Source: Candidatus Parcubacteria bacterium (GTDB lineage Bacteria > Patescibacteriota > Minisyncoccia > UBA6257 > HR35). Taken from it: a DNA stretch of 64,000 nt. The DNA lies in NCBI GenBank assembly GCA_026004535.1, contig BPJI01000001.1, positions 233,491 through 297,490 on the forward strand, given 5' to 3'. The notes below the pieces were generated by a model, which was not told where the DNA came from, searched no databases, and was given only the letters and a program-made list of their open reading frames with translations. A program made the position numbers and the translations under genes. How positions within the stretch are numbered: the stretch's first letter is position 1; every line of letters starts with the position of its first letter. Of the stretch, positions 515 through 60,633 are shown one piece after another.

Positions 515-775
515 ATATAATTTACTACCCGGATTATAACCGGATATAATTACCCGGATTTAAATCAGATAGAGCTACCTGGATATAAACCGGATAATAC
601 TACCCGGATTTTTGCCGGATAAATTAGCCGGATGCAAACCGAATACAATTACCCGTATATAATCCGGATTTATCCGGTAATCATCCGGGTAAAATAATCC
701 GCTATTTATCCGGGTATATATATTTAATCCGGTGTTTATCCGGGTAGATATAATCCGGTGATCATCCGTGTAAAA
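515..775. repeat. CCGGAT-family palindromic tandem array (forward TACCCGGAT copies then reverse ATCCGGGTA copies, ~11-bp phase)
   Basis: Direct reading: about 11 forward copies (515-650) followed by about 9 reverse-complement copies (655-775). Intergenic between nifS-like and htrA-like genes. Confidence 0.9.
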
Positions 776-2599: not shown

Positions 2600-2612
2600 C
2601 TTTTTAATTTTA

Positions 2613-2702
2613 ACGCAAACAGATGCGAACTATACGCTAACTTAATACGAACAATATCATTGTTCGCGTCAATTCGCGTCAAGTTCGCGTTAATTTCGCG
2701 AT
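2613..2702. repeat. GCGAAC/TTCGCG-family palindromic tandem array
   Basis: Forward copies acgcaaac/atgcgaac/tacgaac, centre aatatcattg, then reverse gttcgcgt x4. The right arm overlaps the last 8 codons of gatA. Confidence 0.85.
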
Positions 2703-5906: not shown

Positions 5907-7790
5907 ATGAGAGAAAAAATAAGAAATTTTGCCATAATTGCTCATATTGATCATGGTAAATCAACTTTAGCTGATAGATTTTTGGAAATTACTGGAACTG
6001 TAAGTAAAGATAAATTAGTGCCTCAATATTTAGATAGACTTTCTTTGGAAAGGGAAAAGGGAATAACAATAAAGATGCAGCCAGTAACAATGGAATATCA
6101 AGGCTATATTTTGAATTTAATTGATACTCCTGGTCATATTGATTTTAATTATGAAGTTTCAAGAGCCTTAGCCGCAGTTGAAGGAGTAATTTTACTCATT
6201 GATGGAACTCAAGGTGTTCAAGCCCAGACAATTCATAATTTAGAATTAGCAAAAAAACAAAATTTAGTTATTATTCCTGCGATTAATAAAATTGATTTAG
6301 AAATTCACAATTTAGATGATCTACTTGAAGATATTTATAGATTAACAGGCGAAAGAGAGGTATATTTAATTTCGGCTAAATTAGGAACAGGAGCCGAGGA
6401 ATTATTAAAAGCAGTAATTGAAAAAATTCCTTTCCCAAACGGTTGTGAAAATTACCCAGATATAAACCAGATAAAATTACCCGGATATAAACCAGATAAA
6501 ATTAGTTATCAGGGCGATAATATATCCGGTTCTCATCCGGGTAATACATCCGGTCAACATCTGGGTAATATAGCAGGCAAAGCATTAGTTTTTGATTCTC
6601 ATTTTGATTCTTATAAAGGAATAATTGCCCATGTTAGAATTTTTGAGGGTGAATTTAGAAAATTTCAGGAAGCTTATCTAAGGCAAGCAAAATATAAATT
6701 TAAGATTCTAGAAGTTGGAATTTTTAAACCAGAACTCGAAGAAAAGGAAAAATTAGAATCAGGAATGATTGGTTATCTGGCTACTGGGATTAAAGATCCG
6801 GGAATTTTAAAAATTGGTGAGACAATAACTTTTGATTTAGATACCGAACCACTTTCTGGTTATCAGGAACCAAAACCAGTTGTTTTTGCTTCTGTTTTCC
6901 CTTCAACTAATATTAGTTTTGAAAATTTTGAAAATAGTTTAAAGAAATTTCAATTACAAGATCCTTCAATCTATTTAGAAAAGACAAACTCGCCATTTTT
7001 GGGCAAAGGCTATAATGTTGGAGCAATGGGGCTACTTCATTTAGAAATTTTTGAACAAAGATTAAAAAGAGAATTCCAAACTGATATTATTTTAACTTTA
7101 CCTTCAATTAGATATAAAGCAGTTTTAAAAAATAATCAAGAAGTTTTTATTATTAATCCAAATGAAATTGATTTAGCCCAAGTTTTATATTTTGAAGAAC
7201 CATTTATTGAAGTTGAAATATTTACGCCAATAACTTACAGTGAAAATATTTTTAGTTTAATTAGAAATTCAAGAGGAATAATAAAAAATCAAGTAGTTGA
7301 AGGAAGTTTTTTAAAAATTGTTACTGAAATGCCCTTAGAGGAATTAATTTCGGGATTTTATGATGAATTAAAATCAGTTTCTTCTGGTTATGCTTCATTA
7401 AGATGGCAATTTTTGGATTACCGAAAATCTGATTTAGTTAAATTAGATATTTTAATTGCTGAACAAACGGAGTCAAGCCTTTCAAGGATTATTCATCGAG
7501 ATAAGGCTGAAAAAATTGGCAGAAAAATTCTTTTAGAATTAAAAGAAAATTTGCCCCGAGAAGAATTTGCGATTAAATTACAAGCAGCAATTAATAATCG
7601 AATCATTGCCCGAGAAACTATTCCTGCTTTAAGAAAGGATGTTGCTGGTTGGCTTTACGGTGGTGATCGAACAAGAAAAATGAAATTATGGCAAAAACAA
7701 AAAGAAGGTAAGAAAAAATTACAAGAATTAGGCAAGGGTAAAGTAAAAATTCCTAATGATGTTTTATTAAAAATTTTAAAAGTTCGATGA
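5907..7790 (+). CDS. lepA: translation elongation factor 4 (LepA) carrying a ~40-aa in-frame repeat-derived insertion
   Basis: GTPase motifs AHIDHGKST, DTPGH, NKID. LepA C-terminal domain present. Residues ~185-228 are encoded by a CCGGAT-family array. Confidence 0.9.
   Translation: MREKIRNFAIIAHIDHGKSTLADRFLEITGTVSKDKLVPQYLDRLSLEREKGITIKMQPVTMEYQGYILNLIDTPGHIDFNYEVSRALAAVEGVILLIDGTQGVQAQTIHNLELAKKQNLVIIPAINKIDLEIHNLDDLLEDIYRLTGEREVYLISAKLGTGAEELLKAVIEKIPFPNGCENYPDINQIKLPGYKPDKISYQGDNISGSHPGNTSGQHLGNIAGKALVFDSHFDSYKGIIAHVRIFEGEFRKFQEAYLRQAKYKFKILEVGIFKPELEEKEKLESGMIGYLATGIKDPGILKIGETITFDLDTEPLSGYQEPKPVVFASVFPSTNISFENFENSLKKFQLQDPSIYLEKTNSPFLGKGYNVGAMGLLHLEIFEQRLKREFQTDIILTLPSIRYKAVLKNNQEVFIINPNEIDLAQVLYFEEPFIEVEIFTPITYSENIFSLIRNSRGIIKNQVVEGSFLKIVTEMPLEELISGFYDELKSVSSGYASLRWQFLDYRKSDLVKLDILIAEQTESSLSRIIHRDKAEKIGRKILLELKENLPREEFAIKLQAAINNRIIARETIPALRKDVAGWLYGGDRTRKMKLWQKQKEGKKKLQELGKGKVKIPNDVLLKILKVR
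6450..6580. repeat. CCGGAT-family palindromic array embedded in-frame in lepA
   Basis: attacccagat/attacccggat forward copies then atccggttct/atccgggtaat/atccggtcaa reverse copies. No stop codon in the lepA frame. Confidence 0.85.
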
Positions 7791-8866
7791 AGCTTTTAAT
7801 CCAAAAAGTAAAAGATGTAAGAATAGATGATAAAGATTACCCGGATAAGGACCAGATAGAGTCACCCGGATTTAAACCGGATATGATTAACTACCCGGAT
7901 AATAACCGGATAGAACTATCCGGATTTGAACCGGATAAAGTTAATCATCTACAAGATGAGAAACAAATAAAACTAATTTTGAGTGATTTAACAAATAAAA
8001 TCATAGGTATTTTATTTAAAGTACATAATATATTAGGTCCAAGCTTTAAAGAAGTACAATATAAAAAAGCAATAGAGGACGTTCTATTAAAGGAAAACAT
8101 AGATTTCAAAAAAGAAATCTCTGTCCATATAGATTTTAAATCATTTAAATTAAAAGATTTAAGAATTGATTTTATCATCGAAAATAAATTAATATTGGAA
8201 GTCAAGTCTAAGCCGTTTCTTACAAAAGAAGATATGAGACAAACTTTAAGATATTTAAAAGTTACAGATCTACCCCTAGCCATATTAGTCAATTTCAGAA
8301 GAAAAAAGTTAGAATACAAAAGAATAATAAATCCTGAAGTAATAGATAAATATAGCCCATCCGGTGAAAATCAGGGTAACCAATCTGGTAAACATCCGGG
8401 TAATAACATATCCGGTAATCATCCGGGTAATATATCCGGTTTTCATCCGTGTAATAACATATCCGGTTCTCATCCGGGTAAAATATCCGATAAATATCCG
8501 GGTAATAATTTATTATTAATTTATGTTGGGATTGAAAAAGGAGATGAAAATAAAAATTTAGAAGAAATTGTTAATTATTTAGAAAATTTACAAATTATTG
8601 ATGAAAATGGTAAATTTGCAAAAACAATGAAAGAAACAAAGCCTGTTTTTGTTTTTATTTCTAATATAACTTTATTAGCTGGGTTTGAAAAGGGAAGAAT
8701 AAATTTTAATCGAGCTTTAGAACCAAAATTAGCCAAAGAAATTTTCAAAAAATTAATCCAGGTTTTTAAAAATAAAGGTTATCAAGTTTTTTCTAAAGAA
8801 TTCGGCAGTTATTTAGAGATTACCTCCACTAATGTTGGTCCAATAAACTTTTATCTTCAAATTTAA
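7787..8866 (+). CDS. dtd: D-aminoacyl-tRNA deacylase reading frame interrupted in-frame by a ~670-bp composite element (fusion protein or inactivated gene)
   Basis: N-terminal MKLLIQKVKDV and C-terminal LLLIYVGIEKGDE..SNITLLAG..NVGPINFYLQI match Dtd motifs (MIALIQRV / LLVLLGVEKDD / SQFTLAAD / NDGPVTFWLQV). The 224 codons between them are repeat + GxxExxY module. ATGA overlap with lepA stop. Confidence 0.6.
   Translation: MKLLIQKVKDVRIDDKDYPDKDQIESPGFKPDMINYPDNNRIELSGFEPDKVNHLQDEKQIKLILSDLTNKIIGILFKVHNILGPSFKEVQYKKAIEDVLLKENIDFKKEISVHIDFKSFKLKDLRIDFIIENKLILEVKSKPFLTKEDMRQTLRYLKVTDLPLAILVNFRRKKLEYKRIINPEVIDKYSPSGENQGNQSGKHPGNNISGNHPGNISGFHPCNNISGSHPGKISDKYPGNNLLLIYVGIEKGDENKNLEEIVNYLENLQIIDENGKFAKTMKETKPVFVFISNITLLAGFEKGRINFNRALEPKLAKEIFKKLIQVFKNKGYQVFSKEFGSYLEITSTNVGPINFYLQI
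7838..8509 (+). mobile_element. composite element: forward CCGGAT array (7838-7948) + GxxExxY PD-(D/E)xK nuclease module (7949-8353) + reverse CCGGAT array (8354-8509)
   Basis: Terminal arrays are reverse complements of each other and belong to the same family as the cargo-less arrays elsewhere in the window. The whole element is stop-free in the dtd frame. Confidence 0.55.
7949..8353 (+). other. GxxExxY-family PD-(D/E)xK nuclease-like domain (no own ATG; in-frame with dtd)
   Basis: LTNKIIGILFKVHNILGPSFKEVQYKKAIEDVL..RIDFIIENKLILEVKSK..LRYLKVTDLPLAILVNFRRKKLEYKRII matches the GxxExxY consensus (E.LT..IIG..vH..LGpG.lEsvYe.AL..EL; D..v.....vELK; llnYlk.tg...gllINF). Confidence 0.65.
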
Positions 8867-17289: not shown

Positions 17290-17569
17290 TGTTTTAGAAT
17301 AATTAAATTACGACATTGAGAATTATAAATATTATTCAAATTTGATATAAACTTCGACCTTACTTTGCTCTGTCTATTTGTTTTTTGCCTAAATTCAACC
17401 AATAATCAGATGGTAGTGTTTTTAATTCCTTTAATCTTTTATCTCCTCTTTGTGGATATTTAAAATATATAAATTTTTTATTATCCGTATAAAGTTTTTA
17501 AAATAACGTTTTTTTGAAATTTCAGACAATTTTCAACAATTTCAGATAGTGTATTTTAAACTAATTCTT

Positions 17570-17930
17570 CCTTAGTAAGCCATTTGATTTCTTCTACATT
17601 TTCAGGCGGTTCGAAGTTGTTTTGTTGATTTTTGTTATCAAGATAGCATACAATTACTGTTTTGAAAAAACCCTTGCTTTGTTTTATTAAGCGAAAATCT
17701 AAGGTATTTTGTACTTGATACATTGCTTTTACTTTATAACCTGTTTCATAGAGTACTATCTTTTCGGCTGCTTGTTCTCTTATATCTCCTTTTAATTGAT
17801 CGCCACTTGGAGTAAACCAAATAGGTCCGGGGTCATAATTTACTTCGCAAACTTCTAAAAAGCCTTTGGGAATTTCCTTTTTAACACCTAAAATTTCGTT
17901 CTTTTCATTAAAAACTCAAATAATTATGAA
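17570..17930 (-). pseudogene. NUDIX-hydrolase-like remnant without usable start codon
   Basis: Minus-strand translation gives ..PSGDQLKGDIREQAAEKIVLYETGYKV.. (Nudix-box-like G-x5-E-x7-REuxEExG pattern). The frame is bounded by a stop with no in-frame ATG until late. Confidence 0.3.
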
Positions 17931-18244
17931 GAATTGCATTTATATTTAATATTATAATTATATCATAACTTTACAAATCTATAATTTAATTTGATCTTGG
18001 TGATAGAGTAAATATAATTTTTTTTATTTTTTATAATCTTATTTTTTTATATTATATAATTTTAAATGACATTTATAGTTATTAATTAATACAATAGTAA
18101 TAGATAATTTCTCAATTTCTTAAGAAATTGAGAAAATCAGGTTAAAACACTTTAAATTCAATTTCCAACATGTGGAAGGCTACAAAACCCTCAATTTTCC
18201 TTAATTTTTTAACCTCCTCCAACTCTTGACAAATTGATTCTTGA

Positions 18245-18276
18245 CCCGAACCCTATGTGGTTTGGGGTTTTTGATG
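18245..18276 (+). terminator. hairpin + U-tract upstream of radical SAM gene (terminator/attenuator-like)
   Basis: CCCGAACC-ctatgt-GGTTTGGG followed by GTTTTTGATG. Confidence 0.3.
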
Positions 18277-18314
18277 TATTAAAGTAGAAATCTAAAAGAA
18301 AGGAGGTGAGAAAG

Positions 18315-23505: not shown

Positions 23506-24702
23506 ATGGCAGCAAAATTTGAAAGAACAAAACCACATATCAATGTCGGTACTATTGGTCATGTTGATCATGGTAAAACAACCTTAACTTCGGCAATTAC
23601 TCATGTTCTAAAACTTAAAGGTTTGGTCGAAAGAGAATTAGCCTATGAAGAAATTGATAAAGCGCCAGAAGAAAAATCTAGAGGTTTGACTATTAACATT
23701 CACCACTGCGAATACGAGACAGAAAAAAGACATTATGCTCACATTGATGCTCCTGGGCATGTTGACTATGTCAAAAATATGATTGTTGGTGCGGCACAAA
23801 TGGATGGGGCAATTTTGGTCGTTGCCGCTAATGATGGTGTAATGGCTCAAACAAGAGAGCACATTTTATTAGCTCGTCAAGTTAACGTTCCAGCCATCGT
23901 TGTTTTTATTAATAAAGTTGACATGGTACCTGATAAAGAATTGATTGATTTAGTTGAAGAAGATGTAAGAGCTGAATTAAAAAAGCATGGCTATCCAGGA
24001 GATGAAATACCGGTTATTCGTGGTTCAGCTTTAAAAGCTGTAGAGGCAAAATCATTAGACGATCCTTGGGCAAAGCCAATCTTAGAACTTCTAGATACTT
24101 TAGATAATTATATTCCTGAACCAGTTCGTGATGTTGATAAGCCATTTTTGATGCCAATTGAGGATGTTTTCTCAATTGAGGGTCGGGGTACAGTTGTTAC
24201 TGGTAGAGTTGAAAGAGGAAAAATTAAAGTTAATGATGAAGTTGAAATTGTTGGTTTAAAACATGAACCAATAAAAACAGTTGTTACAGGTATTCAAATG
24301 TTTCACAAGGATATGGACGAAGCAATTCCTGGTGATAATGTTGGTTTACTTTTAAGAGGTGTTAAAAAAGAAGATGTTGAAAGAGGAATGGTTGTGGCTA
24401 AACCAGGTACAATTACTCCTCATACTGATTTTGAAGCCGAAGTTTATGTTCTCAAAGCCGAAGAAGGTGGAAGACACACACCATTTCATACTGGATATAA
24501 ACCTCAATTTTATATTCGAACGACAGACGTTACTGGTGAAGTTACTTTACCTGAAGGCATTGAGGCAGTAATGCCAGGTGATAATGCTAAAATGATTGTT
24601 AAGTTAATTTATCCTGTTGCCTTAGAAGAAGGTTCAAGATTTGCTATTCGTGAAGGTGGAAGAACAGTTGGTGCTGGAGTTGTAACTAAAATTTTGAAAT
24701 AA
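23506..24702 (+). CDS. tuf: elongation factor Tu
   Basis: [19 protein letters not shown] motifs. 398 aa. Immediately precedes rpsJ. Confidence 0.95.
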
Positions 24703-25028
24703 TGGTAAAAACAAAACAGTCTGAACAACAAATTGTTAGATTAAGATTTAGATCTTATGATCACAATTTACTTGATAAATCATTAAAGCAGATTGTTGAT
24801 TTATTACAGAAAGAGGGAATAGAAGTTAGAGGTCCAATACCATTGCCGACCGAAATTAAAAAATATACTGTTAATCGTTCGCCCTTTATCTATAAAAAAA
24901 GTATGGAGCAATTTGAAATGAGAATCCACAAAAGAATTTTAGATATTCTTAATCCTTCGCCAAGAATTTTAGAATTATTTAACTCTCTTGATTTACCAGC
25001 AGGTGTAGAGGTGGAGATAAAAGTGTAA
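24702..25028 (+). CDS. rpsJ: 30S ribosomal protein S10
   Basis: IRLRFRSYDHNLLDKS..RGPIPLPT S10 consensus. Confidence 0.9.
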   Translation: MVKTKQSEQQIVRLRFRSYDHNLLDKSLKQIVDLLQKEGIEVRGPIPLPTEIKKYTVNRSPFIYKKSMEQFEMRIHKRILDILNPSPRILELFNSLDLPAGVEVEIKV

Positions 25029-25032
25029 AATA

Positions 25033-25215
25033 GATTACCCGGATAAATACCGGATAGATTACCCGGATAACTAACCGGATTATTTTACCCGGATGATTAC
25101 CGGATAAATCCGGTTTATATCCGGTCTAAATCCGGGTAGTTGTATACGGTTTAAATCCGGGTAAATTCATCCGGGTGTACATCCGGGTAGTTCTATCCGG
25201 CTTATATCCGGGTAA
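25033..25215. repeat. CCGGAT-family palindromic array between rpsJ and rplC
   Basis: 7 forward TACCCGGAT/ACCGGAT copies then 8 reverse ATCCGG(G)T copies. Fills a 198-bp gap inside the S10 operon. Confidence 0.9.
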
Positions 25216-25226
25216 GCAGCTATTAG

Positions 25227-25871
25227 ATGGAAAATTTAAGGCCAAAATTTTTGTTAGCCAGAAAAATTGGGATGACGCAAATTTTTAAGAATGATAAGAC
25301 TTTACCAGTTACTGTTTTAGAGGCTTTACCAGCTGAAGTTATTAGGATTAAAGAAAAAAATAAAGATGGCTACGATGCTCTTATTTTAAAAATTGATAAT
25401 AAATTAAAAGAATTTAGGTTTGAAGGAGAGGCACCATTTAAAATTGGAGAAAAGATCGATGCTTCAATTTTTAATGTTGGGGAAATAGTTAATGTTAGAA
25501 GTCGAAGAAAAGCTAAGGGATTTGCCGGAGTTGTTAAAAGACATGGTTTTGCTGGTGGACCAAGAACTCATGGTCAAAAGGACAGAGAAAGAGCGCCAGG
25601 TTCAATTGGCCAAAGATGGCCACAAAGAGTGAGAAAAGGATTAAAGATGGCCGGAAGAATCTCTCCTATTTATGTAACAGTTAAAAATCTAGAAATTATT
25701 GATGTTTTACCGGAAAAAAATTTAATTTTAGTTAAGGGTTCTGTTCCAGGGCCAAATAAAAGATTAGTTGAATTAAGGAGTGCTTTTTTGGCAAATAAAG
25801 GTAGAATTTATTTAAATAAAGAATTAACTAAAAAGCTGAAAAGTTTAGAAACTGAAAAAGTTGTTCAATAA
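25227..25871 (+). CDS. rplC: 50S ribosomal protein L3
   Basis: KIGMTQIF start, L3 length and motifs. Confidence 0.9.
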   Translation: MENLRPKFLLARKIGMTQIFKNDKTLPVTVLEALPAEVIRIKEKNKDGYDALILKIDNKLKEFRFEGEAPFKIGEKIDASIFNVGEIVNVRSRRKAKGFAGVVKRHGFAGGPRTHGQKDRERAPGSIGQRWPQRVRKGLKMAGRISPIYVTVKNLEIIDVLPEKNLILVKGSVPGPNKRLVELRSAFLANKGRIYLNKELTKKLKSLETEKVVQ

Positions 25872-26515
25872 TGAAAACCTACTTATACAATTTTCAAGGC
25901 GAAAAGATTGGTGAGATAGAATTTCCAGAAATTTTTAATCTTGAATTTAATCCAGCTTTAGTTCATCAAGTAATGAGATGGCAGATGTTAAATAATTACC
26001 ATCCTTATGCTCACACAAAAACAAGGGGAGAGGTAAGAGGTGGTGGTCGAAAACCTTGGCCACAAAAAGGAACAGGCAGAGCTAGACATGGTTCGATTAG
26101 ATCTCCTATTTGGAAAGGAGGTGGTGTTGTTTTTGGCCCAAGAAAAGAAAAAATAAGACAAATTAAAGTTAATAAAAAAATGAAAAAAAAGGCAATTTTA
26201 ATGACAATTGCCGAAAAATTGAGACAAAATTTAATTAGAGTTATTGATAAATTAGAGCCAAAAGAATATAAAACAAAAGAATTTGAAAAATTTTTCAGTA
26301 AATTTTTACAGCCAAGAAAAACAAAAAAGAAAAAAGAAACTGCCTTATTAGTAATTGAAAATGATAAAAAAGAAATTTATCGAAGCATTCGTAATCTTCC
26401 TTATGCTGATGCTATTTCTGCTCGCAATTTAAACCTTTTAGAACTTTTAAATCATAAATATTTATTTTTAACCAAAGATTCCTTAACCGAACTTTACAAA
26501 AGATTTTCGGTGTAA
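25871..26515 (+). CDS. rplD: 50S ribosomal protein L4
   Basis: Position after rplC. L4-like GGGRKPW..KGTGRAR motif. Confidence 0.85.
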   Translation: MKTYLYNFQGEKIGEIEFPEIFNLEFNPALVHQVMRWQMLNNYHPYAHTKTRGEVRGGGRKPWPQKGTGRARHGSIRSPIWKGGGVVFGPRKEKIRQIKVNKKMKKKAILMTIAEKLRQNLIRVIDKLEPKEYKTKEFEKFFSKFLQPRKTKKKKETALLVIENDKKEIYRSIRNLPYADAISARNLNLLELLNHKYLFLTKDSLTELYKRFSV

Positions 26516-30250: not shown

Positions 30251-30371
30251 ACAGAACTTACTGAACTGATGCAGAACTGACGGAATTTTTCTGCGAGTTC
30301 TGTGTGAGTTCAGTAATTTCCGCGGTAGTATTTTTCTGTAAGTTCTATGTTCGTTCCGTAAGTTCTGCGTA
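30251..30371. repeat. CAGAAC/GTTCTG-family palindromic tandem array
   Basis: acagaact/actgaact/gcagaact/gacggaat then gagttctg/gagttcag/aagttcta/aagttctg. Lies between dnaE and ligT-like gene. Confidence 0.85.
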
Positions 30372-31876: not shown

Positions 31877-32593
31877 ATGGAAACACAAATCCAACAACAA
31901 GTTCAAGAGAGGATTTTTGGTGAAATGATGAAAGCTGGTGTTCATTATGGCCGAGCCAAAAGATACACTCATCCATCAATTAAAAATTTTCTTTTAAAGT
32001 CAAATAAGAATATTGAATTTTTTAACTTGAGATTAACTTTGCAAAAATTAAATGAGGTTAGTGATTATTTGAAACAGGCTTTGGCTGAAAATAAAAAAAT
32101 TTTATTTGTTGGTACGACTCCAGCAAGTCAAAACAAAATTCAAGAAATAGCTCAAGCTCTAAATCAGTATTATTTAAACTATAAATGGGTTGGTGGTTTT
32201 TTAACTAATTTTCAAACAATTAAAGCAAGGCTAATATATTTTAGAGAATTACTGAAAAAAGAAGAAAGTGGTGAAATTCAAAATTTGCCTCCAGCCCAAA
32301 GAGTGAAAATAGAAAAAGAACTTCAAAAATTAAAAAATCTTTATTCGGGAGTAGTTAATTTAGATTCTTTGCCCGATATTGTTTTTATTGTTAATTTGGC
32401 TTATAAACAACACAAAACAGCCAAAAGAGAAGCAATTAGAATGAAAATACCAATTATTGCTTTAGCTGGTTCAGATAATGATGTAAGTAATGTTTTTTTA
32501 TTTGTCCCTGGTAATGACAAAGCACCAAGAAGCATTGCTTGGCAACTAGATTATCTTTTGTCGAAAGTAAAAACACAGAATATACAGAACTAA
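31877..32593 (+). CDS. rpsB: 30S ribosomal protein S2
   Basis: MKAGVHYGRAKRYTHPSIKNF..IFNL..T S2 N-terminal consensus. 238 aa. Confidence 0.85.
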   Translation: METQIQQQVQERIFGEMMKAGVHYGRAKRYTHPSIKNFLLKSNKNIEFFNLRLTLQKLNEVSDYLKQALAENKKILFVGTTPASQNKIQEIAQALNQYYLNYKWVGGFLTNFQTIKARLIYFRELLKKEESGEIQNLPPAQRVKIEKELQKLKNLYSGVVNLDSLPDIVFIVNLAYKQHKTAKREAIRMKIPIIALAGSDNDVSNVFLFVPGNDKAPRSIAWQLDYLLSKVKTQNIQN

Positions 32594-32697
32594 CATAGAA
32601 CTCACAGAAAAATTCCGTCAGTTATGCTTCAGTTCTGTATAGTTCTACATCTAAAAAAATTCAGTAAGTTCAACGTCAGTTCAGTTAGTTCTGTATA
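32583..32697. repeat. CAGAAC/GTTCTG-family array (mixed orientation) overlapping last codons of rpsB
   Basis: tacagaact/catagaact ... cagttctgta/tagttctaca/cagttcagt/tagttctgtat. Confidence 0.8.
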
Positions 32698-33600: not shown

Positions 33601-33690
33601 GTTATAATTTATAATAGAAATAGGTCGGCATAGCTCAATGGTACCTGCCTGCAGGCAGGCAGGGATGGTTTTGTAAATCGAAGTGACTGC

Positions 33691-33762
33691 GCCGAGGTAG
33701 CTCAACGGTAGAGCAGGGGCTTTGTAAGCCCAAGGTTAGGGGTTCGAATCCCCTCCTCGGCT
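33691..33762 (+). tRNA. tRNA-Thr (anticodon TGT)
   Basis: Manual fold: acceptor GCCGAGG/CCTCGGC, D-arm GCTC-AACGGTA-GAGC, anticodon loop TTTGTAA, T-arm AGGGG-TTCGAAT-CCCCT, discriminator T. CCA not encoded. Confidence 0.8.
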
Positions 33763-33766
33763 CAAG

Positions 33767-44366: not shown

Positions 44367-44668
44367 AAATTAAAAAAGGAGATCAGGTTTTAATTATTAA
44401 AGGTAAAGATAGGGGTAAAGTTGGAAAAGTAATTAAAGCTTTACCTAAAGAAAGCCGTGTTATTATTGAAGGTTTAAATTTAGTTAAAAAACATATTAAG
44501 CCAAGAAGAGAGGGAGAAAAAGGAAAGATTATCGAAGTGCCGAGACCAATTTCGGTAAGTAATGTAAAATTAGTTTGCCCGAATTGTCATAAAGCAACAA
44601 GAGTTGGTTATAAATTCGAAGGTCAAAAAAAATTTAGATATTGTAAAAAATGTCAAAACAAGATTTAA
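44363..44668 (+). CDS. rplX: 50S ribosomal protein L24 with Cys4 zinc-ribbon C-terminus
   Basis: [21 protein letters not shown] motif. C-terminal CPNC..CKKC. Confidence 0.85.
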   Translation: MKIKKGDQVLIIKGKDRGKVGKVIKALPKESRVIIEGLNLVKKHIKPRREGEKGKIIEVPRPISVSNVKLVCPNCHKATRVGYKFEGQKKFRYCKKCQNKI

Positions 44669-45144
44669 AGAAACCAAGACCAATCAAAGGAATTGTTCAG
44701 ATAGGAATTGGTAAGTTAGTTGTTGCTCATCCTGAAGCTCAGGAAAAAATTATTGAAGATGGAATTTATGTTCTTTCAATGATAACCGGACAAAAACCAA
44801 AAATTGTGACTGCTAAAAAATCTATCTCGGGATTTAAAGTCAGAAAAGGAATGCCGGTTGCTTTGTTGGTAACTTTAAGAAAAAAAAGATTGAATGACTT
44901 CATTCAAAGATTGCTAACTTATGCTTTGCCAAGAGCAAAAGATTTTTATGGTCTTAAAGCAGATAATTTTGATAATAGAGGAAATATTAATCTTGGTTTT
45001 CGTGAGATAAGTGTTTTTCCTGAAGCAATTTCTGATAAAATTAAATATAACTTTGGTTTTTCAATTAATTTAGTTGGTTCAGGAAAAACCAAAGAAGAGA
45101 ATATTGATTTGTGGCGAGAATTAGGTTTTCCGATTAAAGTCTGA
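44650..45144 (+). CDS. rplE: 50S ribosomal protein L5
   Basis: Position and L5 motifs ([10 protein letters not shown]). Confidence 0.85.
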
Positions 45145-45329
45145 TGCCATCAAAAGCACAAATTGTTCGTTGGTTAAAAAAACCAAAGTATAAGACTAGA
45201 AAAAGAAATGTTTGTTTTCGTTGTGGGCGAACAAGAGGTTATTTTCGAGATTTTAATTTGTGTCGAATTTGTTTAAGAGAAATGGCTCATCGGGGAGAAA
45301 TCCCTGGTCTTAAAAAAGCAAGCTGGTAA
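45144..45329 (+). CDS. rpsN: 30S ribosomal protein S14 type Z (zinc-binding, 61 aa)
   Basis: [34 protein letters not shown]. Confidence 0.9.
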
Positions 45330-45718
45330 TGACCGACCCAATTGCTGATTTACTTACAAGAATTAAGAATGCTTTAAGAGTAAGAAAAAAACAAGTTATT
45401 GCTCCTTATTCAAAAATAAAAGTTGGGATTTTGAAAATTTTAAGAGATAAAGGTTTGATCAGGGGATTTAAAATTGAAGGTGATGTTAAGAAGAATTTTA
45501 TTATTTATCTTAAATATGATGAAAATGGCGAACCTCTAATTGAAGATTTAAAGAGAGTTTCAAAACCAGGAAGAAGAGTTTATGCTGGTTACAAAGAATT
45601 AAGGCCATTAAGAAGAGGATTTGCTTTTAGAATTGTTTCAACTAGTCGAGGTTTAATAACTGATGAAGAAGCAAGAAAAAGAAAATTAGGTGGTGAAATT
45701 ATCTGTGAAGTTTATTAA
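45329..45718 (+). CDS. rpsH: 30S ribosomal protein S8
   Basis: [16 protein letters not shown]8 start. Confidence 0.9.
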   Translation: MTDPIADLLTRIKNALRVRKKQVIAPYSKIKVGILKILRDKGLIRGFKIEGDVKKNFIIYLKYDENGEPLIEDLKRVSKPGRRVYAGYKELRPLRRGFAFRIVSTSRGLITDEEARKRKLGGEIICEVY

Positions 45719-46269
45719 TGTCAAAAATAGGTAAAAAACCAATAAATATTTCAGACAATATTTCAATTCAAGAACTTGCTGAAAATAGATTTGAAATAAA
45801 AGGGCCAAAGGGTTCATTAATTTTTGATTTACCTCAAAATTTTAAACTAGAAATTGAAAATAGTACTTTAAAAATCAGCCCCCTGGAAATTAATAGAAAA
45901 ACTAAACCATTATGGGGAACATTAAGAAGGCTTTTGGAAAACAAAATTATTGGTGTTAGTCAAGGATTTGAGAAAGTTTTAATTTTAGAAGGCTTAGGAT
46001 ATTCGGCGGAACAAAGAGGAGATAGATTATTTTTTAAACTTGGTTTTTCTCATCCAATTGAGATCGAAATTCCAGAAGATATTAAGATTGAAATTAAGCA
46101 AGAAAAAGGAAGGTCATTGATTTATGTTCGGGGAATTGATAAAGAAAAAGTTGGTAATTTTGCTAGTCAAATTAAAAAATTAAAACCAGCAGATAGATAT
46201 CATCAAAAAGGATTTAGATATATTAATGAGGTCATTAAATTAAAGCCAGTTAAGAAAGCAGGTAAGTGA
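45718..46269 (+). CDS. rplF: 50S ribosomal protein L6
   Basis: MSKIGKKPI..two alpha/beta repeats. 183 aa. Confidence 0.9.
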
Positions 46270-46604
46270 TGGATAAAGAAAAAAGATTAAGAAGAAAAAA
46301 AAGAGTTAGAGCGAAAATCTTGGGCACTAAAGAAAGACCACGACTTTCTATTTTTCGATCAAATCAACATATTTATGCTCAGATTATTGATGATACCGAG
46401 GGAAGAACTTTGGTTAGTGCTAATAGTTTAAAGTTAAAAGGCTTAACCAATAAGGATAAAGTTTTGAAAGTTGCCGAAGATTTAGCTGAAAAAGCAAAGA
46501 CAAAGGGAATTGAAAAGGTTGTTTTTGATCGTAATGGTTTTAGTTATAAAGGTCGGATTAAATTATTGGCTGAAAAATTAAGAGAGCTCGGTTTGGAATT
46601 TTAA
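46266..46604 (+). CDS. rplR: 50S ribosomal protein L18
   Basis: [21 protein letters not shown]18 consensus. Confidence 0.9.
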
Positions 46605-47126
46605 ATGGCAGAAAAATTTGAATTCAAAGTTATTGAAGTTAAAAGAGTGGCCAAAGCAGTTGAAGGAGGGAAAAGAATTAAAGTTCGAGCAGTTGTTGTT
46701 GCTGGTAATTTACAGGGTAAGGTTGGGATCGGTGTTGCTAAGGGAGATGATATTGCTTTAGCTGTGGAAAAGGCAAGAAGATTAGCTGAAAAAAATACCA
46801 CTAATACTCCTTTAATCGAAGGCACTGTTCCTTTTGAAATTGAAAATAAATTTGGAGCTACAAAAATTTTATTAAAACCTGCTAAAAAAGGAAGAGGTTT
46901 GATTGCTGGTAATGTTGTTCGGACAGTTCTTTCTTTAGCAGGTTATACCGATGTTTCGGCTAAAATTTTAGGAGTAACAAAAAACCCATTAGTTAATGCT
47001 TTAGCAACAATCAAAACTTTGGAAAAACTTAATAAAATTTATGAAAAGAAACTTAAATTAAAAACATTAATCAATAAAGAAAATGCAAGTACACCAGATA
47101 AAGTTCAAATTGAAGAAGAAAAATAG
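46605..47126 (+). CDS. rpsE: 30S ribosomal protein S5
   Basis: VIEVKRVAKAVEGGKR..VVVAGN..G.VG.G..K S5 consensus. Confidence 0.9.
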   Translation: MAEKFEFKVIEVKRVAKAVEGGKRIKVRAVVVAGNLQGKVGIGVAKGDDIALAVEKARRLAEKNTTNTPLIEGTVPFEIENKFGATKILLKPAKKGRGLIAGNVVRTVLSLAGYTDVSAKILGVTKNPLVNALATIKTLEKLNKIYEKKLKLKTLINKENASTPDKVQIEEEK

Positions 47127-47514
47127 AGTTGGCCGTGGTGGTAAAAGGGGTTCTTATTCAGGTAGAGGTATAAAAGGGCAGAAAGCAAGAGCTGGTCGTC
47201 GTATCAGGCCAGCCTTAAGGGATGTTATTTTAAAATTCCCGAAAAAAAGAGGTTGGGCAAATATAAAGATTGAAAAAAATATTTTGGAAGTTAATCTTGA
47301 AAAAATTAATGAGAAATTTCAACCAGGAGAAATTGTTAGCCCTGAAACATTAAAAGAAAAGAAAATTTTAAGGATTCCTAAAAGTTTAAAAAATTTTCAA
47401 ATAAAAATTTTGGGCCAAGGCGATCTAACCAAGTCGTTAATTTTTGATCATCGTTTAATTTTTTCTCGATCAGCTAGAGAAAAAATAGAAAATTCAAATA
47501 GCAAAATTCAATGA
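47083..47514 (+). CDS. rplO: 50S ribosomal protein L15 (follows rpsE directly; no rpmD/L30 gene)
   Basis: KNRVGRGGKRGSYSGRGIKGQKARAG L15 N-terminus. True start probably a non-ATG codon downstream of 47083. Confidence 0.8.
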   Translation: MQVHQIKFKLKKKNRVGRGGKRGSYSGRGIKGQKARAGRRIRPALRDVILKFPKKRGWANIKIEKNILEVNLEKINEKFQPGEIVSPETLKEKKILRIPKSLKNFQIKILGQGDLTKSLIFDHRLIFSRSAREKIENSNSKIQ

Positions 47515-50337: not shown

Positions 50338-50465
50338 ACCTAATTAACTCGAATTTATTTGTATATATTCGTGTATATTCATTATATAAAAATATTCGAA
50401 TAAATTCGCGTATATTCGTAATATAAAAAAATTCGTATATATGCGTTATAAATTCGAATCAATAT
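50338..50465. repeat. ATTCG/GCGAAT-family tandem array (mostly one orientation)
   Basis: attcgtgta/attcgaata/attcgcgta/attcgtaat/attcgtata/tgcgttata/attcgaatc. Confidence 0.8.
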
Positions 50466-50536
50466 GGATAAAACACAATTAAAATTAACTCTGTTTTAGA
50501 TCATTTAAAGCGCGAGAACTCTGTTATAATTAAATT

Positions 50537-51719: not shown

Positions 51720-51824
51720 TCCCTCAGCTTCTCAGTTTCAAAGAAAATATCGGGGCATCGTATGTTCTCAATTTTTACTTTAGATAATATATAGTTTTCA
51801 TCATGGTATTAATATCCAGTACTA

Positions 51825-52005
51825 ATCCGGGTAGTATATCCGGTTTTCATCAGGATAATCTTATATACTTTCCATCATACTAATCTATCCGGTAATCATC
51901 CGGGTAATCTATCCGGTAATCATCCGGGTAATCTATCCGGTAATCATCCGGGTAACTATATCCGGTATTCATCCGGGTAGTATATCATGTTTCCATCAGG
52001 GTAAT
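51825..52005. repeat. CCGGAT-family array, reverse-orientation copies (3' module of pilin-LamG locus)
   Basis: tatccggtaatcatccgggtaatc x3 etc. Followed by ctact/agtag hairpin and ttttacgacctcgtacgtcgtaaag palindrome. Confidence 0.9.
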
Positions 52006-52102
52006 CTATAAATTTTTCATTTCTACTATCTAAATACGATCGTATTAAGTTAGGAGAAGTGAAATTTTACGACCTCGTACGTCGTAAAGTTAAAGTAAAA
52101 TA

Positions 52103-52180: not shown

Positions 52181-52266
52181 TTTTGAATTCACAACTGAAG
52201 AATTCTTGAGTTATAATTGAAAGAGTAGAAGTAAGTTTTGGGTTGTTAATATGTTATAATTAATCT

Positions 52267-55608: not shown

Positions 55609-55636
55609 AACGCGGATAGCTGCAGAAAAATATTTT

Positions 55637-55885
55637 TACCCGGATATGAACCGGATAATACTACCCGGATATAGACCGGATAGAACTATCCGGATTATAA
55701 CCGGATAAGTTACTCGGATTTAAACCAGATTTATCCGGTAATCATCTGGGTAAAATAATCCGGTAGTTTATCCGGGTAATCTATCCGGTTGACTATCCGG
55801 GTAAATATTTTAATATCCGGTATTTATCCGGGTGAAATAATCCGGTAATCATCCGGGTAATTATATCCGGTAGATCATCAGGGTA
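55637..55885. repeat. CCGGAT-family palindromic array (forward 55637-55730, reverse 55735-55885)
   Basis: tacccggat x5 then atccggta/atccgggta x9. Lies between membrane-protein gene and rplU. Confidence 0.9.
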
Positions 55886-55923
55886 GTTAAAACATTTCAG
55901 TAGCTGTCTGCGCATTTAAAAAA

Positions 55924-59963: not shown

Positions 59964-59985
59964 TTCCTCAGCTTCTCAGCTTCAA

Positions 59986-60012: not shown

Positions 60013-60064
60013 CAATTTTTACTTTAGATAATATATAGTTTTCATCATGGTATTAATATCCAGT

Positions 60065-60225
60065 ACTAATCCGGGTAGTATATCCGGTTTTCATCAGGAT
60101 AATATTATATACTTTCCATCATGCTAATATATCCAGTATTCATCCGGGTAATCTATCCGGTAATAATCCGGGTAACTATATCCGGTAATAATCCGGGTAG
60201 TATATCATGTTTCTATCGGGATAAC
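60065..60225. repeat. CCGGAT-family array, reverse-orientation copies (3' module of pilin-LamG locus)
   Basis: tatccggtaataatccgggtaactatatccggtaataatccgggtagtat. Followed by ctact/agtag hairpin. Confidence 0.9.
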
Positions 60226-60633
60226 CTATAAATTTTTCATTTCTACTATTTAAATACGATCGTATCAAGTTAGTAGAAGTGAAAAAAAAATTTCTTTTTG
60301 TGCCATAATTAAGACATGGTAAAAGTAGTAGAAAGGCAAAGGAAAAATAGATTGGTATTTAAAAAAATTGGATGTTTTGGCAAAAGTTTGCTTCTGGTTG
60401 GAGGAAGAAAAGAATTATCGATCCTCTAAAGTGGCAAAAAAAATTAGAAGTGAAAAATAAACTTGATGTTCCTTTTTGATACTAATTTTTTAATCTATTA
60501 TCTTAATTCATTAGTTCATTAATTTCCAATGAATGAGCTCTGGATTCAATATTAAAAGGATTCAATATTAAAATAACCCGGAATTCGTAATTCGGGACTA
60601 AAGAATTTTTGAATTTTATGTTATAATTTAAAT

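What the first reader, a model, noticed from the sequence alone, without database searches (positions are those of the whole stretch)
515..775. Superfamily of ~11-bp-phased palindromic tandem arrays with locus-specific cores
At least 14 loci share the same architecture: several tandem copies of a 7-10-nt core spaced ~11-13 bp (one helical turn), followed by the same number of reverse-complement copies.
- Family A, core TACCCGGAT: 515-775, 6450-6580, 7838-7948/8354-8509, 25033-25215, 40025-40285, 51825-52005, 55637-55885, 60065-60225.
- Family B, GCGAAT/ACGAAT: 2613-2702, 36240-36345, 50338-50465.
- Family C, CAGAACT: 30251-30371, 32583-32697, 38514-38680.
- Family D, CACGGATA: 42311-42478.
The core differs between loci, yet within each locus both arms stay self-complementary (concerted, compensatory evolution). 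This implies hairpin/cruciform-templated copying or strong selection on structure. Cores share a loose consensus N-C-N-G-R-A-W. Helical phasing suggests a protein-binding array or an element propagated as a folded single strand.
Basis: seen in the sequence. Interest (0 to 1): 0.8.

Follow-up and report, generated by a model that had tools for sequence, protein, structure and literature searches.

The report
Mobile palindromic arrays with GxxExxY nuclease
The palindromic repeat arrays are real, and they look like the arms of an apparently undescribed selfish mobile DNA whose full-length copies carry a small GxxExxY nuclease gene and which has invaded both the spacers between genes and, in frame, essential genes of a tiny Parcubacteria genome.

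Summary
Sixteen array loci (4.1% of the window, about 40% of its intergenic DNA) consist of 7-9-nt cores phased 10-14 bp apart. Most are followed by the same cores in reverse complement (ACCCGGAT: 46 copies against 0.4 expected).

Three corrections apply:
- Three family-A loci are one-armed.
- Arm copy numbers are unequal.
- Cores are family-specific, not locus-specific. They are variants of AC-N-CG-R-AT that recur in other genomes.

The window comes from a Parcubacteria (CPR) MAG. Two arrays sit in frame inside essential genes:
- One lies in lepA, and orthologues in two related contigs lack it.
- A pair of arms flanks a GxxExxY (PDDEXK_3) nuclease domain inside dtd.

The same arm-nuclease-arm module interrupts enolase, GatB, RecG, RecO and other genes elsewhere. 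Twelve of 13 GxxExxY loci examined, from several phyla, carry such arms. A composite array recurs at four unrelated loci with conserved spacers.

Best reading: these are terminal inverted repeats built of tandem iterons, belonging to a nuclease-encoding mobile element and its MITE-like arm-only derivatives. Copies persist in genes only when in frame and stop-free, as with Rickettsia palindromic elements. The transposition chemistry is inferred, not shown. I found no prior description.

The parts
524..772 (.). Family A array, two-armed and arm-only, between a nifS-like gene end and htrA
   Evidence: About 8 plus and 7 minus exact CCGGAT cores. RNA fold z -8.6. Stops in all 6 frames.
2610..2702 (.). 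Family B array (ACGCGAAC/ACGAAC then TTCGCG x4), overlapping the 3' end of gatA
5907..7790 (+). Host gene lepA (EF4), interrupted in frame
   Evidence: TIGR01393, 652.8 bits, two stretches; residues 182-224 have no counterpart in PDB 2ywe
6451..6570 (.). Family A arm-only array inserted in frame in lepA, translated ...YPDINQIKLPGYKPDKISYQGDNISGSHPGNTSGQHLGN...
   Evidence: The site is empty in the lepA orthologues of L141 and L156.
7787..8866 (+). Host gene dtd (D-aminoacyl-tRNA deacylase), interrupted in frame by a full element
   Evidence: The Dtd profile matches only residues 243-357 plus the short N-terminus.
7837..7945 (.). Left arm of the full element (family A, 7 exact CCGGAT cores)
7985..8329 (+). 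GxxExxY / PDDEXK_3 nuclease domain between the arms, with no stop codon of its own
   Evidence: 97.4 bits; TIGR04256, 98.5 bits; D69, E79, K81 conserved; pLDDT 95. It is the only copy in the window.
8354..8505 (.). Right arm of the full element (8 exact ATCCGG cores). Unit lengths of 24 and 27 nt keep the reading frame.
25036..25215 (.). Family A array between rpsJ and rplC
   Evidence: z -8.9
30251..30371 (.). Family C array (CAGAACT/CTGAACT then AGTTCTG/AGTTCAG) between dnaE and a LigT-like gene
32583..32697 (.). Family C array between rpsB and tsf. It supplies the last codons and the stop of rpsB.
36245..36340 (.). Family B array (ACGAAT/GCGAAT x4 then ATTCG x4, spaced 10-11 bp) between hisS and a HIT gene
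   Evidence: The same cores flank GxxExxY genes in L159, L161 and L165.
38514..38680 (.). CAGAACT/CGGAA array with an unrelated hairpin repeat nested at its centre
40010..40285 (-). Family A one-armed array (about 7 units of 24-25 bp) downstream of pilin-LamG copy 1
42311..42480 (.). Family D array (CACGGAT pairs 10 bp apart) between rplV and rpsC. It supplies the rplV C-terminus and stop.
   Evidence: ACGCGGAT-type arms flank a GxxExxY domain in L124.
50338..50465 (.). Family B-like irregular array (ATTCG/CGAAT) upstream of pilin-LamG copy 2
51808..52010 (-). Family A one-armed array (about 5 units) downstream of pilin-LamG copy 2
55636..55888 (.). Family A two-armed array upstream of rplU
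60052..60228 (-). Family A one-armed array (about 3.5 units) downstream of pilin-LamG copy 3

Best explanation
The arrays are the terminal inverted-repeat arms of a family of selfish mobile elements.

Architecture:
- Each arm is a run of short 'iteron' cores, variants of AC-N-CG-R-AT. Cores come as pairs one helical turn apart (10-11 bp), and the pairs repeat every 24-28 bp. The two arms are in inverted orientation.
- Full-length ('autonomous') copies carry, between the arms, a roughly 120-aa GxxExxY PD-(D/E)xK nuclease of the Cas4/RecB-like fold. The window holds one such copy, inside dtd.
- The other 15 loci are arm-only, MITE-like derivatives of at least four core families.

Shown:
- The arrays are insertions: orthologous sites are empty.
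- Defined copies are dispersed at unrelated loci.
- The arms and the nuclease gene are co-inherited across phyla.
- Copies inside genes are always in frame and stop-free.

Inferred:
- The nuclease, probably as a multimer, recognises the phased cores on both arms. It does so either on duplex DNA, synapsing the ends, or on the folded-back hairpin or cruciform, which the arms can form. It then cuts at the element boundaries.
- Arm-only copies are mobilised in trans.
- Palindrome centres and AT-rich gene boundaries are preferred targets.
- Arms expand and contract by slippage of 24-49-bp units.
- In a 0.56-Mb genome with almost no spare DNA, the surviving insertions are those in tiny spacers and those that add a flexible Gly/Ser/Pro/Asn/His-rich loop to a tolerant surface of an essential protein. 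The Rickettsia palindromic elements show the same pattern.
For: Insertion polymorphism:
- The lepA orthologues in L141 and L156 (70-74% nucleotide identity) lack the 120-bp array.
- Two enolase sites show reciprocal filled and empty states between L120 and L121.

Dispersed copies:
- A roughly 170-bp composite array, with outer ACGCGGAC arms and inner family-A arms, recurs at four loci. Its spacers are conserved but its flanks are unrelated.

Link to the nuclease:
- The window ORF 7787-8866 reads Dtd N-terminus, arm, PDDEXK_3/GxxExxY, arm, Dtd C-terminus.
- Its relatives are enolases with the same module.
- Exhaustive HMMER finds the domain embedded, with repeat-peptide arms, in GatB, RuvX, RecO, RecG, DHFR, transketolase, a P-type ATPase, AsnB and glycosyltransferases.
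- DNA of 13 GxxExxY loci was read, and 12 have phased inverted core arrays. These include loci from a Deltaproteobacteria MAG (11 + 6 ACGAAT cores) and an Anaerolineales MAG, plus several unassigned contigs.
- Within one gatB gene, a full copy and an arm-only copy share the core TCTCGAAT.
- Nuclease clades track arm type, and arms are family-matched in 17 of 17 elements.

Nuclease competence:
- D69, E79 and K81 are invariant.
- The AlphaFold2 model has pLDDT 95.

Selection on genic copies:
- Intergenic family-A arrays have stops in all six frames, while the genic ones are open in the host frame.
- Right-arm units in dtd are 24 or 27 nt.
- 18 of 45 family-A arrays in 32 metagenome loci lie inside long open frames (MurC/MurD-like ligases, TruB, MnmA, PpsA, Tgt and others). 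They are always read as LPGxKPD...SGxHPGN.

Abundance:
- 13 of 23 spacers of at least 40 bp hold an array. That is 40% of the spacer DNA.
Against: - No biochemical or genetic evidence shows that GxxExxY proteins bind or cut the arms.
- The protein has only about 120 residues and no separate DNA-binding domain.
- I found no consistent target-site duplication.
- Arm-only copies vastly outnumber full copies: 1 of 9 family-A loci in the window, and 1 of 45 arrays in the metagenome loci.
- Only one nuclease gene (family A) lies in the window, so cognate nucleases for families B, C and D in this genome are unverified.
- Family C has no matched nuclease-bearing element. The only lead is its resemblance to the GTCTGAAC terminal motif.
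- Three arrays are one-armed.
- One of the 13 loci examined (L164, Bacteroidia) has different repeats and a neighbouring Y1 transposase gene.
Confidence: 0.6

Rival explanations
1. The arrays are independent selfish palindromic repeats, like REP or RPE, spread by host functions or by an unseen enzyme. GxxExxY genes are separate selfish genes that home into palindrome centres. The association then reflects target choice, not a transposase-end relationship.
For: - Nesting at palindrome centres is common. Family-A arrays sit in the centre of ACGCGGAC-type arrays. An unrelated hairpin repeat sits in the centre of the array at 38514-38680.
- Arm-only copies greatly outnumber nuclease-bearing ones.
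- A Y1 transposase gene lies next to one Bacteroidia GxxExxY locus.
Against: - Nuclease clades track arm type.
- The nuclease ORF starts and ends inside the arms.
- 12 of 13 nuclease loci from several phyla have arms.
- No other transposase or nuclease candidate was seen in the window.
Confidence: 0.2
2. The arrays are host-beneficial cis-regulatory DNA. They would be phased binding sites for a transcription factor or nucleoid protein, or promoter clusters, placed at gene boundaries.
For: - Cores lie one helical turn apart.
- Arrays end 7-38 bp before start codons of htrA, rplC, tsf, rpsC, rplU and others.
- The right-arm core plus spacer resembles an extended -10 element, for example TGGTAAAAT (read).
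Against: - Arrays lie in frame inside essential ORFs, in 2 window loci and in 18 of 45 metagenome arrays.
- They are absent from orthologous sites.
- Sigma-70-like sites are not enriched: 81 found against 82.7 expected.
- The last -10-like motif before rpsC lies 1 nt from the ATG.
- Four different core families would need four regulators, and none is seen.
Confidence: 0.07
3. The arrays act at the RNA level. They would be long hairpins in polycistronic mRNAs serving as terminators, 3'-end stabilisers or RNase III sites, and would be kept by selection on structure.
For: - Predicted folds are very stable, with z -8.6 and -8.9.
- Arrays sit between co-transcribed ribosomal protein genes.
Against: - Three arrays are one-armed.
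- Spacers are unconstrained.
- Single-core variants are not compensated in the partner arm.
- All units of an array share one core, which pairing alone does not require.
- No Rfam family matches.
Confidence: 0.05
4. The arrays arise in place, by slippage and hairpin-templated repair from a seed motif, without transposition.
For: - Copy number differs between paralogous pilin-linked arrays, at about 7, 5 and 3.5 units with a 49-bp higher-order period.
- Arms are unequal in length.
- A host TACCTGGAT core-like sequence adjoins one enolase insertion.
Against: - The same composite array, with conserved spacers, occurs at four loci with unrelated flanks.
- Identical core families occur in unrelated genes and genomes.
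- A whole nuclease gene lies between the arms.
Confidence: 0.05

Closest known systems
Rickettsia palindromic elements (RPE; Ogata et al. 2000, from my own knowledge)
   Same: - Short palindromic selfish repeats in a reduced, AT-rich genome.
- They insert both between genes and in frame inside essential protein-coding genes.
- They are translated as extra surface peptides.
   Different: - RPEs are single imperfect palindromes of 100-150 bp without tandem phased cores.
- They have no associated nuclease gene.
- They are known from Rickettsia (Alphaproteobacteria), not from CPR or other phyla.
REP/BIME elements with their RAYT transposase (Enterobacteria, Pseudomonas; from my own knowledge)
   Same: - Abundant palindromic units cluster at gene ends and within operons.
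- A dedicated nuclease gene is flanked by inverted copies of its own repeats.
- Different repeat families pair with different enzyme clades.
- Other elements insert into REP loops.
   Different: - The enzyme is an HUH Y1 transposase, whereas here it is a PD-(D/E)xK nuclease.
- REPs are extragenic only.
- REPs are single 20-40-nt hairpins, not runs of 8-mers phased at 10-11 bp.
MITEs and their parent TIR transposons, including ends with several subterminal transposase-binding repeats (Tn7, Mu, CACTA/En-Spm; from my own knowledge)
   Same: - Non-coding derivatives keep only the inverted ends of an element that encodes its own enzyme.
- The ends contain multiple, oriented binding-site repeats.
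   Different: - No target-site duplication was found.
- The whole arm consists of repeats.
- The candidate enzyme is a 120-aa PD-(D/E)xK protein. It is not a DDE transposase, and it is not the multi-protein Tn7 machinery, in which the PD-(D/E)xK protein TnsA is only one component.
Foldback (FB) transposons of Drosophila and other eukaryotes (from my own knowledge)
   Same: - Long inverted arms are built entirely of short tandem repeats.
- Arm lengths are variable and unequal.
- Many copies lack any coding region.
   Different: - They are eukaryotic.
- Repeat units are 10-31 bp and lack this core.
- There is no PD-(D/E)xK gene.
- No in-frame genic insertions are known.
Inteins and in-frame homing-endonuclease insertions
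   Same: A selfish nuclease domain is embedded in frame in conserved housekeeping proteins and is translated with the host.
   Different: - There is no Hint or splicing domain, so the insert presumably stays in the mature protein.
- The insert is bounded by DNA-level inverted repeat arrays.
- Arm-only copies exist.
Intervening sequences of bacterial 23S rRNA genes (from my own knowledge)
   Same: A small selfish ORF lies between inverted repeats that form a long stem, inserted in an essential gene.
   Different: - IVS are removed from the rRNA by RNase III without re-ligation.
- Here the frame and the absence of stops are conserved, which implies translation through the insert.

Membership tests
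MITE / non-autonomous TIR element | Terminal inverted repeats | tested here: met
   Arms are family-matched in 17 of 17 elements. Fold z is -8.6 and -8.9. Three loci are one-armed.
MITE / non-autonomous TIR element | Many dispersed copies with unrelated flanks | tested here: met
   16 loci in 64 kb. 45 family-A arrays in 32 metagenome loci. A composite copy occurs at 4 loci with unrelated flanks.
MITE / non-autonomous TIR element | Presence/absence polymorphism at orthologous sites | tested here: met
   lepA and enolase sites 1 and 2.
MITE / non-autonomous TIR element | Target-site duplication of fixed length | tested here: inconclusive
   Flanks of 34 two-armed arrays were inspected. One possible ATAAC repeat appears at enolase site 2, but there is no consistent pattern. 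The AT-rich flanks make chance matches likely.
MITE / non-autonomous TIR element | A coding parent element with the same ends | tested here: met
   A full element lies in dtd. A full copy and an arm-only copy share one core in a single gatB gene. That the encoded protein is the transposase cannot be tested with these tools.
Rickettsia palindromic elements | In-frame, stop-free insertion in protein-coding genes | tested here: met
Rickettsia palindromic elements | Sequence similarity to the RPE families and occurrence in Rickettsia | tested here: not met
   The host is a Parcubacteria MAG. The internal organisation, tandem phased 8-mers, differs from the RPE palindrome as I know it. No direct alignment to RPE consensus sequences was made.
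REP/BIME-RAYT | Associated HUH Y1 (IS200/IS605-like) transposase | tested here: not met
   The ORF between the arms is PDDEXK_3/GxxExxY, with no Y1_Tnp hit.
REP/BIME-RAYT | Strictly extragenic location | tested here: not met
   Arrays lie inside lepA and dtd, and 18 of 45 metagenome arrays lie in ORFs.
CRISPR array | Direct repeats of 23-47 bp separated by unique spacers of similar length, with cas genes nearby | tested here: not met
   Cores are 7-9 nt with 3-9-nt spacers, and the orientation inverts mid-array. No cas gene appears among the ORFs.
Iteron-type replication origin | A single locus per replicon next to a Rep initiator gene | tested here: not met
   16 loci in 64 kb, some inside genes, and no Rep gene.
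Intein | Hint splicing domain flanking the endonuclease | tested here: not met
   Pfam finds only Tyr_Deacylase and PDDEXK_3 in the dtd ORF.
GxxExxY / PDDEXK_3 protein family (for the ORF between the arms) | Profile match above the curated cut-off | tested here: met
   PF13366 scores 97.4 bits against a cut-off of 22. TIGR04256 scores 98.5 bits against a cut-off of 35.
GxxExxY / PDDEXK_3 protein family (for the ORF between the arms) | PD-(D/E)xK catalytic residues and fold | tested here: met
   D69, E79 and K81 are invariant in 70 sequences. The model has pLDDT 95. Cas4, lambda exonuclease, BpuSI and Hjc are structural neighbours.

The most novel reading that the evidence does not exclude
GxxExxY (PDDEXK_3) proteins form a family of many thousands of members whose function was still listed as unknown in the 2012 PD-(D/E)xK survey. 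They may be the mobility nucleases of a widespread, unrecognised class of prokaryotic transposable element. The ends of this element would be helically phased iteron arrays with a tunable 8-nt core (AC-N-CG-R-AT). In CPR bacteria these elements and their MITE-like derivatives would fill the intergenic space and colonise essential genes in frame, leaving a nuclease domain or a repeat peptide embedded in the host protein.
Probability: 0.45. Interest if true: 0.85.

Novelty: new variant of a known kind. Interest (0 to 1): 0.8.

Why it matters
- It would give a first functional context to a very large uncharacterised nuclease family: 5,497 hits at E below 1e-3 among 50%-identity cluster representatives, and at least 7,993 in the 90%-identity collection.
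- It would add a PD-(D/E)xK-based element with iteron-type ends to the known kinds of bacterial mobile DNA.
- It would show that ultra-small CPR genomes, usually described as streamlined, carry a heavy load of selfish repeats, about 40% of spacer DNA in this window.
- It explains odd 'insertions' and split or fused gene models in CPR housekeeping proteins (enolase, GatB, LepA, Dtd, MurC/MurD-like ligases, RecG and others). These affect annotation, phylogenomic marker alignments and structure prediction.
- The variable core positions offer a natural series for studying how a small nuclease changes DNA specificity.

Tried and rejected
- **Genome-contig scan** with ACCCGGAT-N4-5-ACCGGAT. Fifteen specified bases were too few for 596 Gb.
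- **Viral contigs** scanned with a 23-base three-core pattern: no hit.
- **Rfam** at gathering threshold: only one tRNA, and nothing at the arrays.
- **Sigma-70 promoter scan**: no enrichment, 81 against 82.7 expected. The 'terminator-like' hits inside arrays are just adjacent CCGG cores pairing.
- **PADLOC**: no hit. **PHROGs**: one weak family of unknown function.
- **PDB by sequence**: no relative of the nuclease part.
- **Target-site duplications**: none consistent.
- **Nuclease paralogues from the same MAG**, to match families B-D. The word-indexed searches returned either too few hits or 8,000 unranked family members, with none from this MAG beyond P0001.
- **Compensatory changes between arms**: none convincing in the arrays at 515-775 and in lepA.
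- **Literature**: searches for GxxExxY, PDDEXK_3, CPR with palindromic, in-frame or MITE, and the MAG name found no description of these elements. The 2012 PD-(D/E)xK survey lists PDDEXK_3 as 'Unknown'. The library is partial, so a prior description cannot be excluded.
- **Rejected outright**: CRISPR array, replication iterons, intein and assembly artefact (see the membership tests).
Full report
**1. What is in the sequence**

The window is AT-rich, about 30% G+C. The octamer ACCCGGAT occurs 46 times against 0.42 expected, and CCGGAT 103 times against 9.8. Almost all copies lie in nine clusters. Tandem Repeats Finder reports periods of 24-25 and 49 at these places.

A blind scan for over-represented G+C-containing hexamers in 160-bp windows recovers families A (ATCCGG), B (ACGAAT/ATTCGA), C (AGAACT) and D (CACGGA). 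In total 102 windows pass, against 0-4 in shuffles.

The family-A unit is TTACCCGGAT-n4-ACCGGATA-n5. Both cores are strongly conserved, and the spacers are near background at 0.1-0.6 bit.

Spacing by family:

| Family | Centre-to-centre spacing |
|---|---|
| A | alternates 11 and 13/14 bp |
| B | 10/11 bp |
| D | 10 bp, then 16-18 bp |
| C | 9-11 bp |

The basic module is therefore a direct-repeat pair one helical turn apart, iterated every 24-28 bp.

In most loci a run of such units is followed by the same units in reverse complement. As single strands they would fold into long imperfect hairpins: -104.5 kcal/mol with z -8.6 for 515-775, and -95.3 kcal/mol with z -8.9 for 25029-25226. In 17 of 17 elements, in the window and elsewhere, the left arm's k-mer profile best matches a right arm of its own family.

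**2.

- The three family-A loci at about 40010-40285, 51808-52010 and 60052-60228 contain cores in one orientation only. They belong to a triplicated segment of a type IV pilin-LamG gene plus its downstream region. They differ in unit number, at about 7, 5 and 3.5 units, with a 49-bp higher-order repeat.
- Arm copy numbers are unequal, for example 6 against 8 and 6 against 10.
- Single-core variants are not compensated in the opposite arm (read).
- The cores are not locus-specific. A, B and D are one-substitution neighbours (ACCCGGAT, ACGCGAAT, ACACGGAT) within a consensus AC-N-CG-R-AT. The same cores recur in other genomes (section 4).

**3. Where the window comes from, and the key finding**

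The ORF at 7787-8866 is identical to a protein of the MAG 'Candidatus Parcubacteria bacterium KatS3mg096', on a contig of 556,583 bp. The gene content fits a CPR bacterium. It includes ribosomal protein operons, tuf, fusA, secY, secA, dnaE and pilin-LamG genes.

Thirteen of the 23 intergenic spacers of at least 40 bp hold an array. The arrays make up 40% of that spacer DNA and 4.1% of the window. They fill spacers inside normally tight operons (rpsJ|rplC, rplV|rpsC, rpsB|tsf). In two cases they supply the last codons and the stop of the upstream gene.

Two loci are inside genes.

*lepA.* The array at 6451-6570 lies in frame in lepA. Residues 182-224 (…YPDINQIKLPGYKPDKISYQGDNISGSHPGNTSGQHLGN…) take the place of about four residues (190-193) in the solved LepA structure 2ywe. 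The lepA profile matches in two stretches.

*dtd.* The arrays at 7837-7945 and 8354-8505 lie in frame in dtd. The Dtd profile matches only the first few residues and residues 243-357. Residues 67-181, between the two arms, are a full-length PDDEXK_3 / GxxExxY domain: PF13366 at 97.4 bits and TIGR04256 at 98.5 bits. It is the only copy of that domain in the window.

Intergenic family-A arrays have stop codons in all six frames. The genic arrays are open in the host frame. The right-arm units inside dtd are 24 or 27 nt long, which keeps the frame.

**4. The same module elsewhere**

*Protein evidence*
- The closest relatives of the dtd ORF are enolases of other uncultured bacteria carrying the same insertion of arm, GxxExxY, arm.
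- An exhaustive HMMER search with the nuclease domain finds 5,497 relatives at E below 1e-3.
- Among the best 150, dozens are embedded in longer proteins. I read 20 of these and identified the host by eye as GatB (six representatives), RuvX, RecO, RecG, enolase, DHFR, transketolase, a P-type ATPase, AsnB, glycosyltransferases, a hydrolase or a pilin.
- Most show repeat peptides on one or both sides of the domain, and these peptides differ between hosts.

*DNA evidence*

| Locus | Host or context | Arm cores |
|---|---|---|
| L120 | enolase | family A cores |
| L121 | enolase | TACCCGAAT / GACCGAAT: one G-to-A change in every unit of both arms |
| L124 | P-type ATPase | ACGCGGAT / ACGCAGAT pairs 10 bp apart, like family D. 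A stop in the right arm splits the host ORF. |
| L125 | gatB | TCTCGAAT, plus an arm-only copy with the same core in the same gene |
| L159, L161 | free-standing genes | CACGAAT / ACGCGAAT … ATTCGTG, the family B cores |
| L165 | Deltaproteobacteria MAG | 11 ACGAAT cores upstream and 6 ATTCGT cores downstream |
| L167 | Anaerolineales | short CGCAGAT / CGCGAAT arms |
| L171 | free-standing gene | perfect 30-bp inverted repeat made of GCAGATTA-type units |
| L169, L170 | free-standing genes | GTCTGAACCGCAGAT-type arrays |
| L164 | Bacteroidia | different repeats, with a Y1 transposase gene next door |

In all, 12 of 13 nuclease loci have phased inverted arrays. Nuclease similarity tracks arm type. 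The window copy, P0002 and P0007 are 60-62% identical and share the TACCCGRAT/ACCGRAT design. P0177, P0183, P0192 and P0267 are 61-75% identical, and three of them (not P0267, the L164 locus) share GTCTGAAC-type ends.

**5. Evidence that the arrays are insertions and are dispersed as units**

A three-core family-A pattern finds 32 metagenome loci, all of 25-35% G+C and from a handful of JGI samples. It finds none in viral contigs.

- Two of these loci carry lepA orthologues (70-74% nucleotide identity) in which the array is absent. About 21-28 bp stand in place of 141-148 bp.
- Enolase shows reciprocal filled and empty states at two sites between L120 and L121.
- Of the 45 family-A arrays in these loci, 18 lie inside long open frames. 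By eye the hosts are MurC/MurD-like ligases, TruB, MnmA, PEP synthase, Tgt, a P-type ATPase and YrdC-like proteins. The arrays are always translated as LPGxKPD … SGxHPGN.
- Several arrays are nested exactly in the centre of an ACGCGGAC-type array.
- This composite of about 170 bp recurs at four loci with conserved spacers and unrelated flanks. That is the signature of a copied element rather than local growth.
- In L155 a pilin-LamG gene only 46% identical to the window's is followed, directly after its stop codon, by a two-armed family-A array.

**6. The protein**

In an alignment of 70 family members, D69, E79 and K81 (the PD-(D/E)xK triad) and the G..E..Y motif are conserved, and the window copy has them. 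The AlphaFold2 model is confident, with pLDDT 95.3.

Structural neighbours of the model:

| Method | Neighbour | Score |
|---|---|---|
| Foldseek | Cas4 SSO0001 | best E 1e-4 |

It is a minimal Cas4/RecB-like nuclease without further domains. PADLOC has no match. The 2012 survey of the superfamily lists PDDEXK_3 as 'Unknown'.

**7. Interpretation**

Shown:
- The arrays are non-random, family-structured inverted arms.
- They are insertions, and defined copies are dispersed.
- The arms and the nuclease gene are inherited together across phyla.
- Genic copies are under selection to stay translatable.

Inferred:
- The nuclease recognises the phased cores, either on duplex DNA or on the folded-back strand, and cuts at the ends.
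- Arm-only copies are mobilised in trans.
- Palindrome centres are preferred targets.
- Arms grow and shrink by slippage.

Alternatives remain possible and are scored separately. The most serious is that the nuclease gene is a separate selfish gene that homes into pre-existing palindromes. Regulatory or RNA-structural roles do not explain three observations: the in-frame genic copies, the empty orthologous sites, and the one-armed arrays. A simple promoter scan shows no enrichment, and no Rfam family matches. Secondary exaptation at some loci cannot be excluded.

**8. Comparison with known systems and novelty**

- The behaviour is closest to Rickettsia palindromic elements: in-frame colonisation of essential genes in a reduced genome.
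- The logic is closest to REP/RAYT and to MITE/transposon pairs, where repeat families are tied to a dedicated enzyme gene flanked by its own repeats.
- The arm architecture is closest to eukaryotic foldback elements.

It fails the defining tests for RPE (host and organisation), REP/RAYT (enzyme family and extragenic location), CRISPR, iteron origins and inteins. I found no description of it in the searchable literature. That library is incomplete.

I rate it a new variant of a known kind (TIR-bounded mobile DNA with MITE-like derivatives). There is a substantial chance that it defines a new class of nuclease-driven element and gives a function to the GxxExxY family.

**9. Limits**

- Only 64 kb of the genome was visible.
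- The genome-collection scan was wasted on an unspecific pattern.
- No target-site duplication was established.
- Family C has no matched nuclease-bearing copy.
- The sample of nuclease loci is 13.
- No expression or biochemical data exist.

Noticed in passing
window 38581-38640, 40343-40365, 52066-52088, 52105-52165, 61066-61120: A second, unrelated repeat family of G+C-rich hairpins, of the form GACGTGCGATGTCC, AT-rich loop, GGACATCGCACGTC, plus TTTACGACGTCGTACGTCGTAAA. GACGTNNNACGTC with up to 1 mismatch occurs 8 times against 0.12 expected. One copy sits exactly at the centre of the array at 38514-38680.
   Followed up: partly
window 38726-40340, 50524-52060, 58766-60285: A segment holding a type IV pilin-LamG gene plus its downstream one-armed array is triplicated. 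The first 300 nt are 98-100% identical. Only the third gene copy is intact (394 aa). The first has in-frame stops and a diverged 3' half, and the second is cut short.
   Followed up: partly
window 58752-58781, 60619-60636, 52250-52269, 40400-40435: Many genes have a TGTTATAAT or TGGTATAAT extended -10-like motif ending 6-7 nt before the ATG and show no Shine-Dalgarno sequence. This suggests leaderless mRNAs in this organism (read).
   Followed up: no
window 24702-26515 and 40433-49356: The S10/spc ribosomal protein cluster is split. rpsJ-rplC-rplD lies 14 kb away from rplW-rplB-rpsS-rplV-rpsC and the rest of the cluster, and arrays lie at two of the internal junctions.
   Followed up: no
window 58712-58750 and 59964-59985: Short CT-rich repeats (CTTCCAAG CTTCTCAG TTTCCAGA CTTTCGGG CTTCTTAG; CCTCAGCTTCTCAGCTTC) flank the third pilin gene. 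They may be another small repeat family.
   Followed up: no
window 33620-33690: Just upstream of tRNA-Thr (33691-33763) lies a tRNA-like 5' part, GGTCGGCATAGCTCAATGGTA, followed by the palindrome CCTGCCTGCAGGCAGGCAGG. Neither ARAGORN nor Rfam calls a tRNA there. It may be a disrupted or unusual tRNA.
   Followed up: partly
window 17290-18305: A 1-kb stretch has no ORF of 90 aa or more, in an otherwise tightly packed genome. It could hold a decayed gene or small genes.
   Followed up: no
L120 5990-6045; L121 4195-4300 (enolase genes): One-directional in-frame arrays of ACGCGGAT/ACGCTGAT cores, translated ...TADERRYNADERGYF..., occur at a third enolase site. So one-armed arrays also occur inside genes.
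   Followed up: no
L124 3001-5422: In a P-type ATPase, the right arm of the nuclease-bearing element carries a stop codon. The C-terminal hydrolase part of the host protein is called as a separate ORF. It is either a split gene or a pseudogene.
   Followed up: no
L120 5905-5925 versus L121 4120-4135: At enolase site 1 the element abuts a host sequence, TACC(A/T)GGAT encoding LPGL / VPGL, that resembles the element's own core. This may be a clue to target choice.
   Followed up: no
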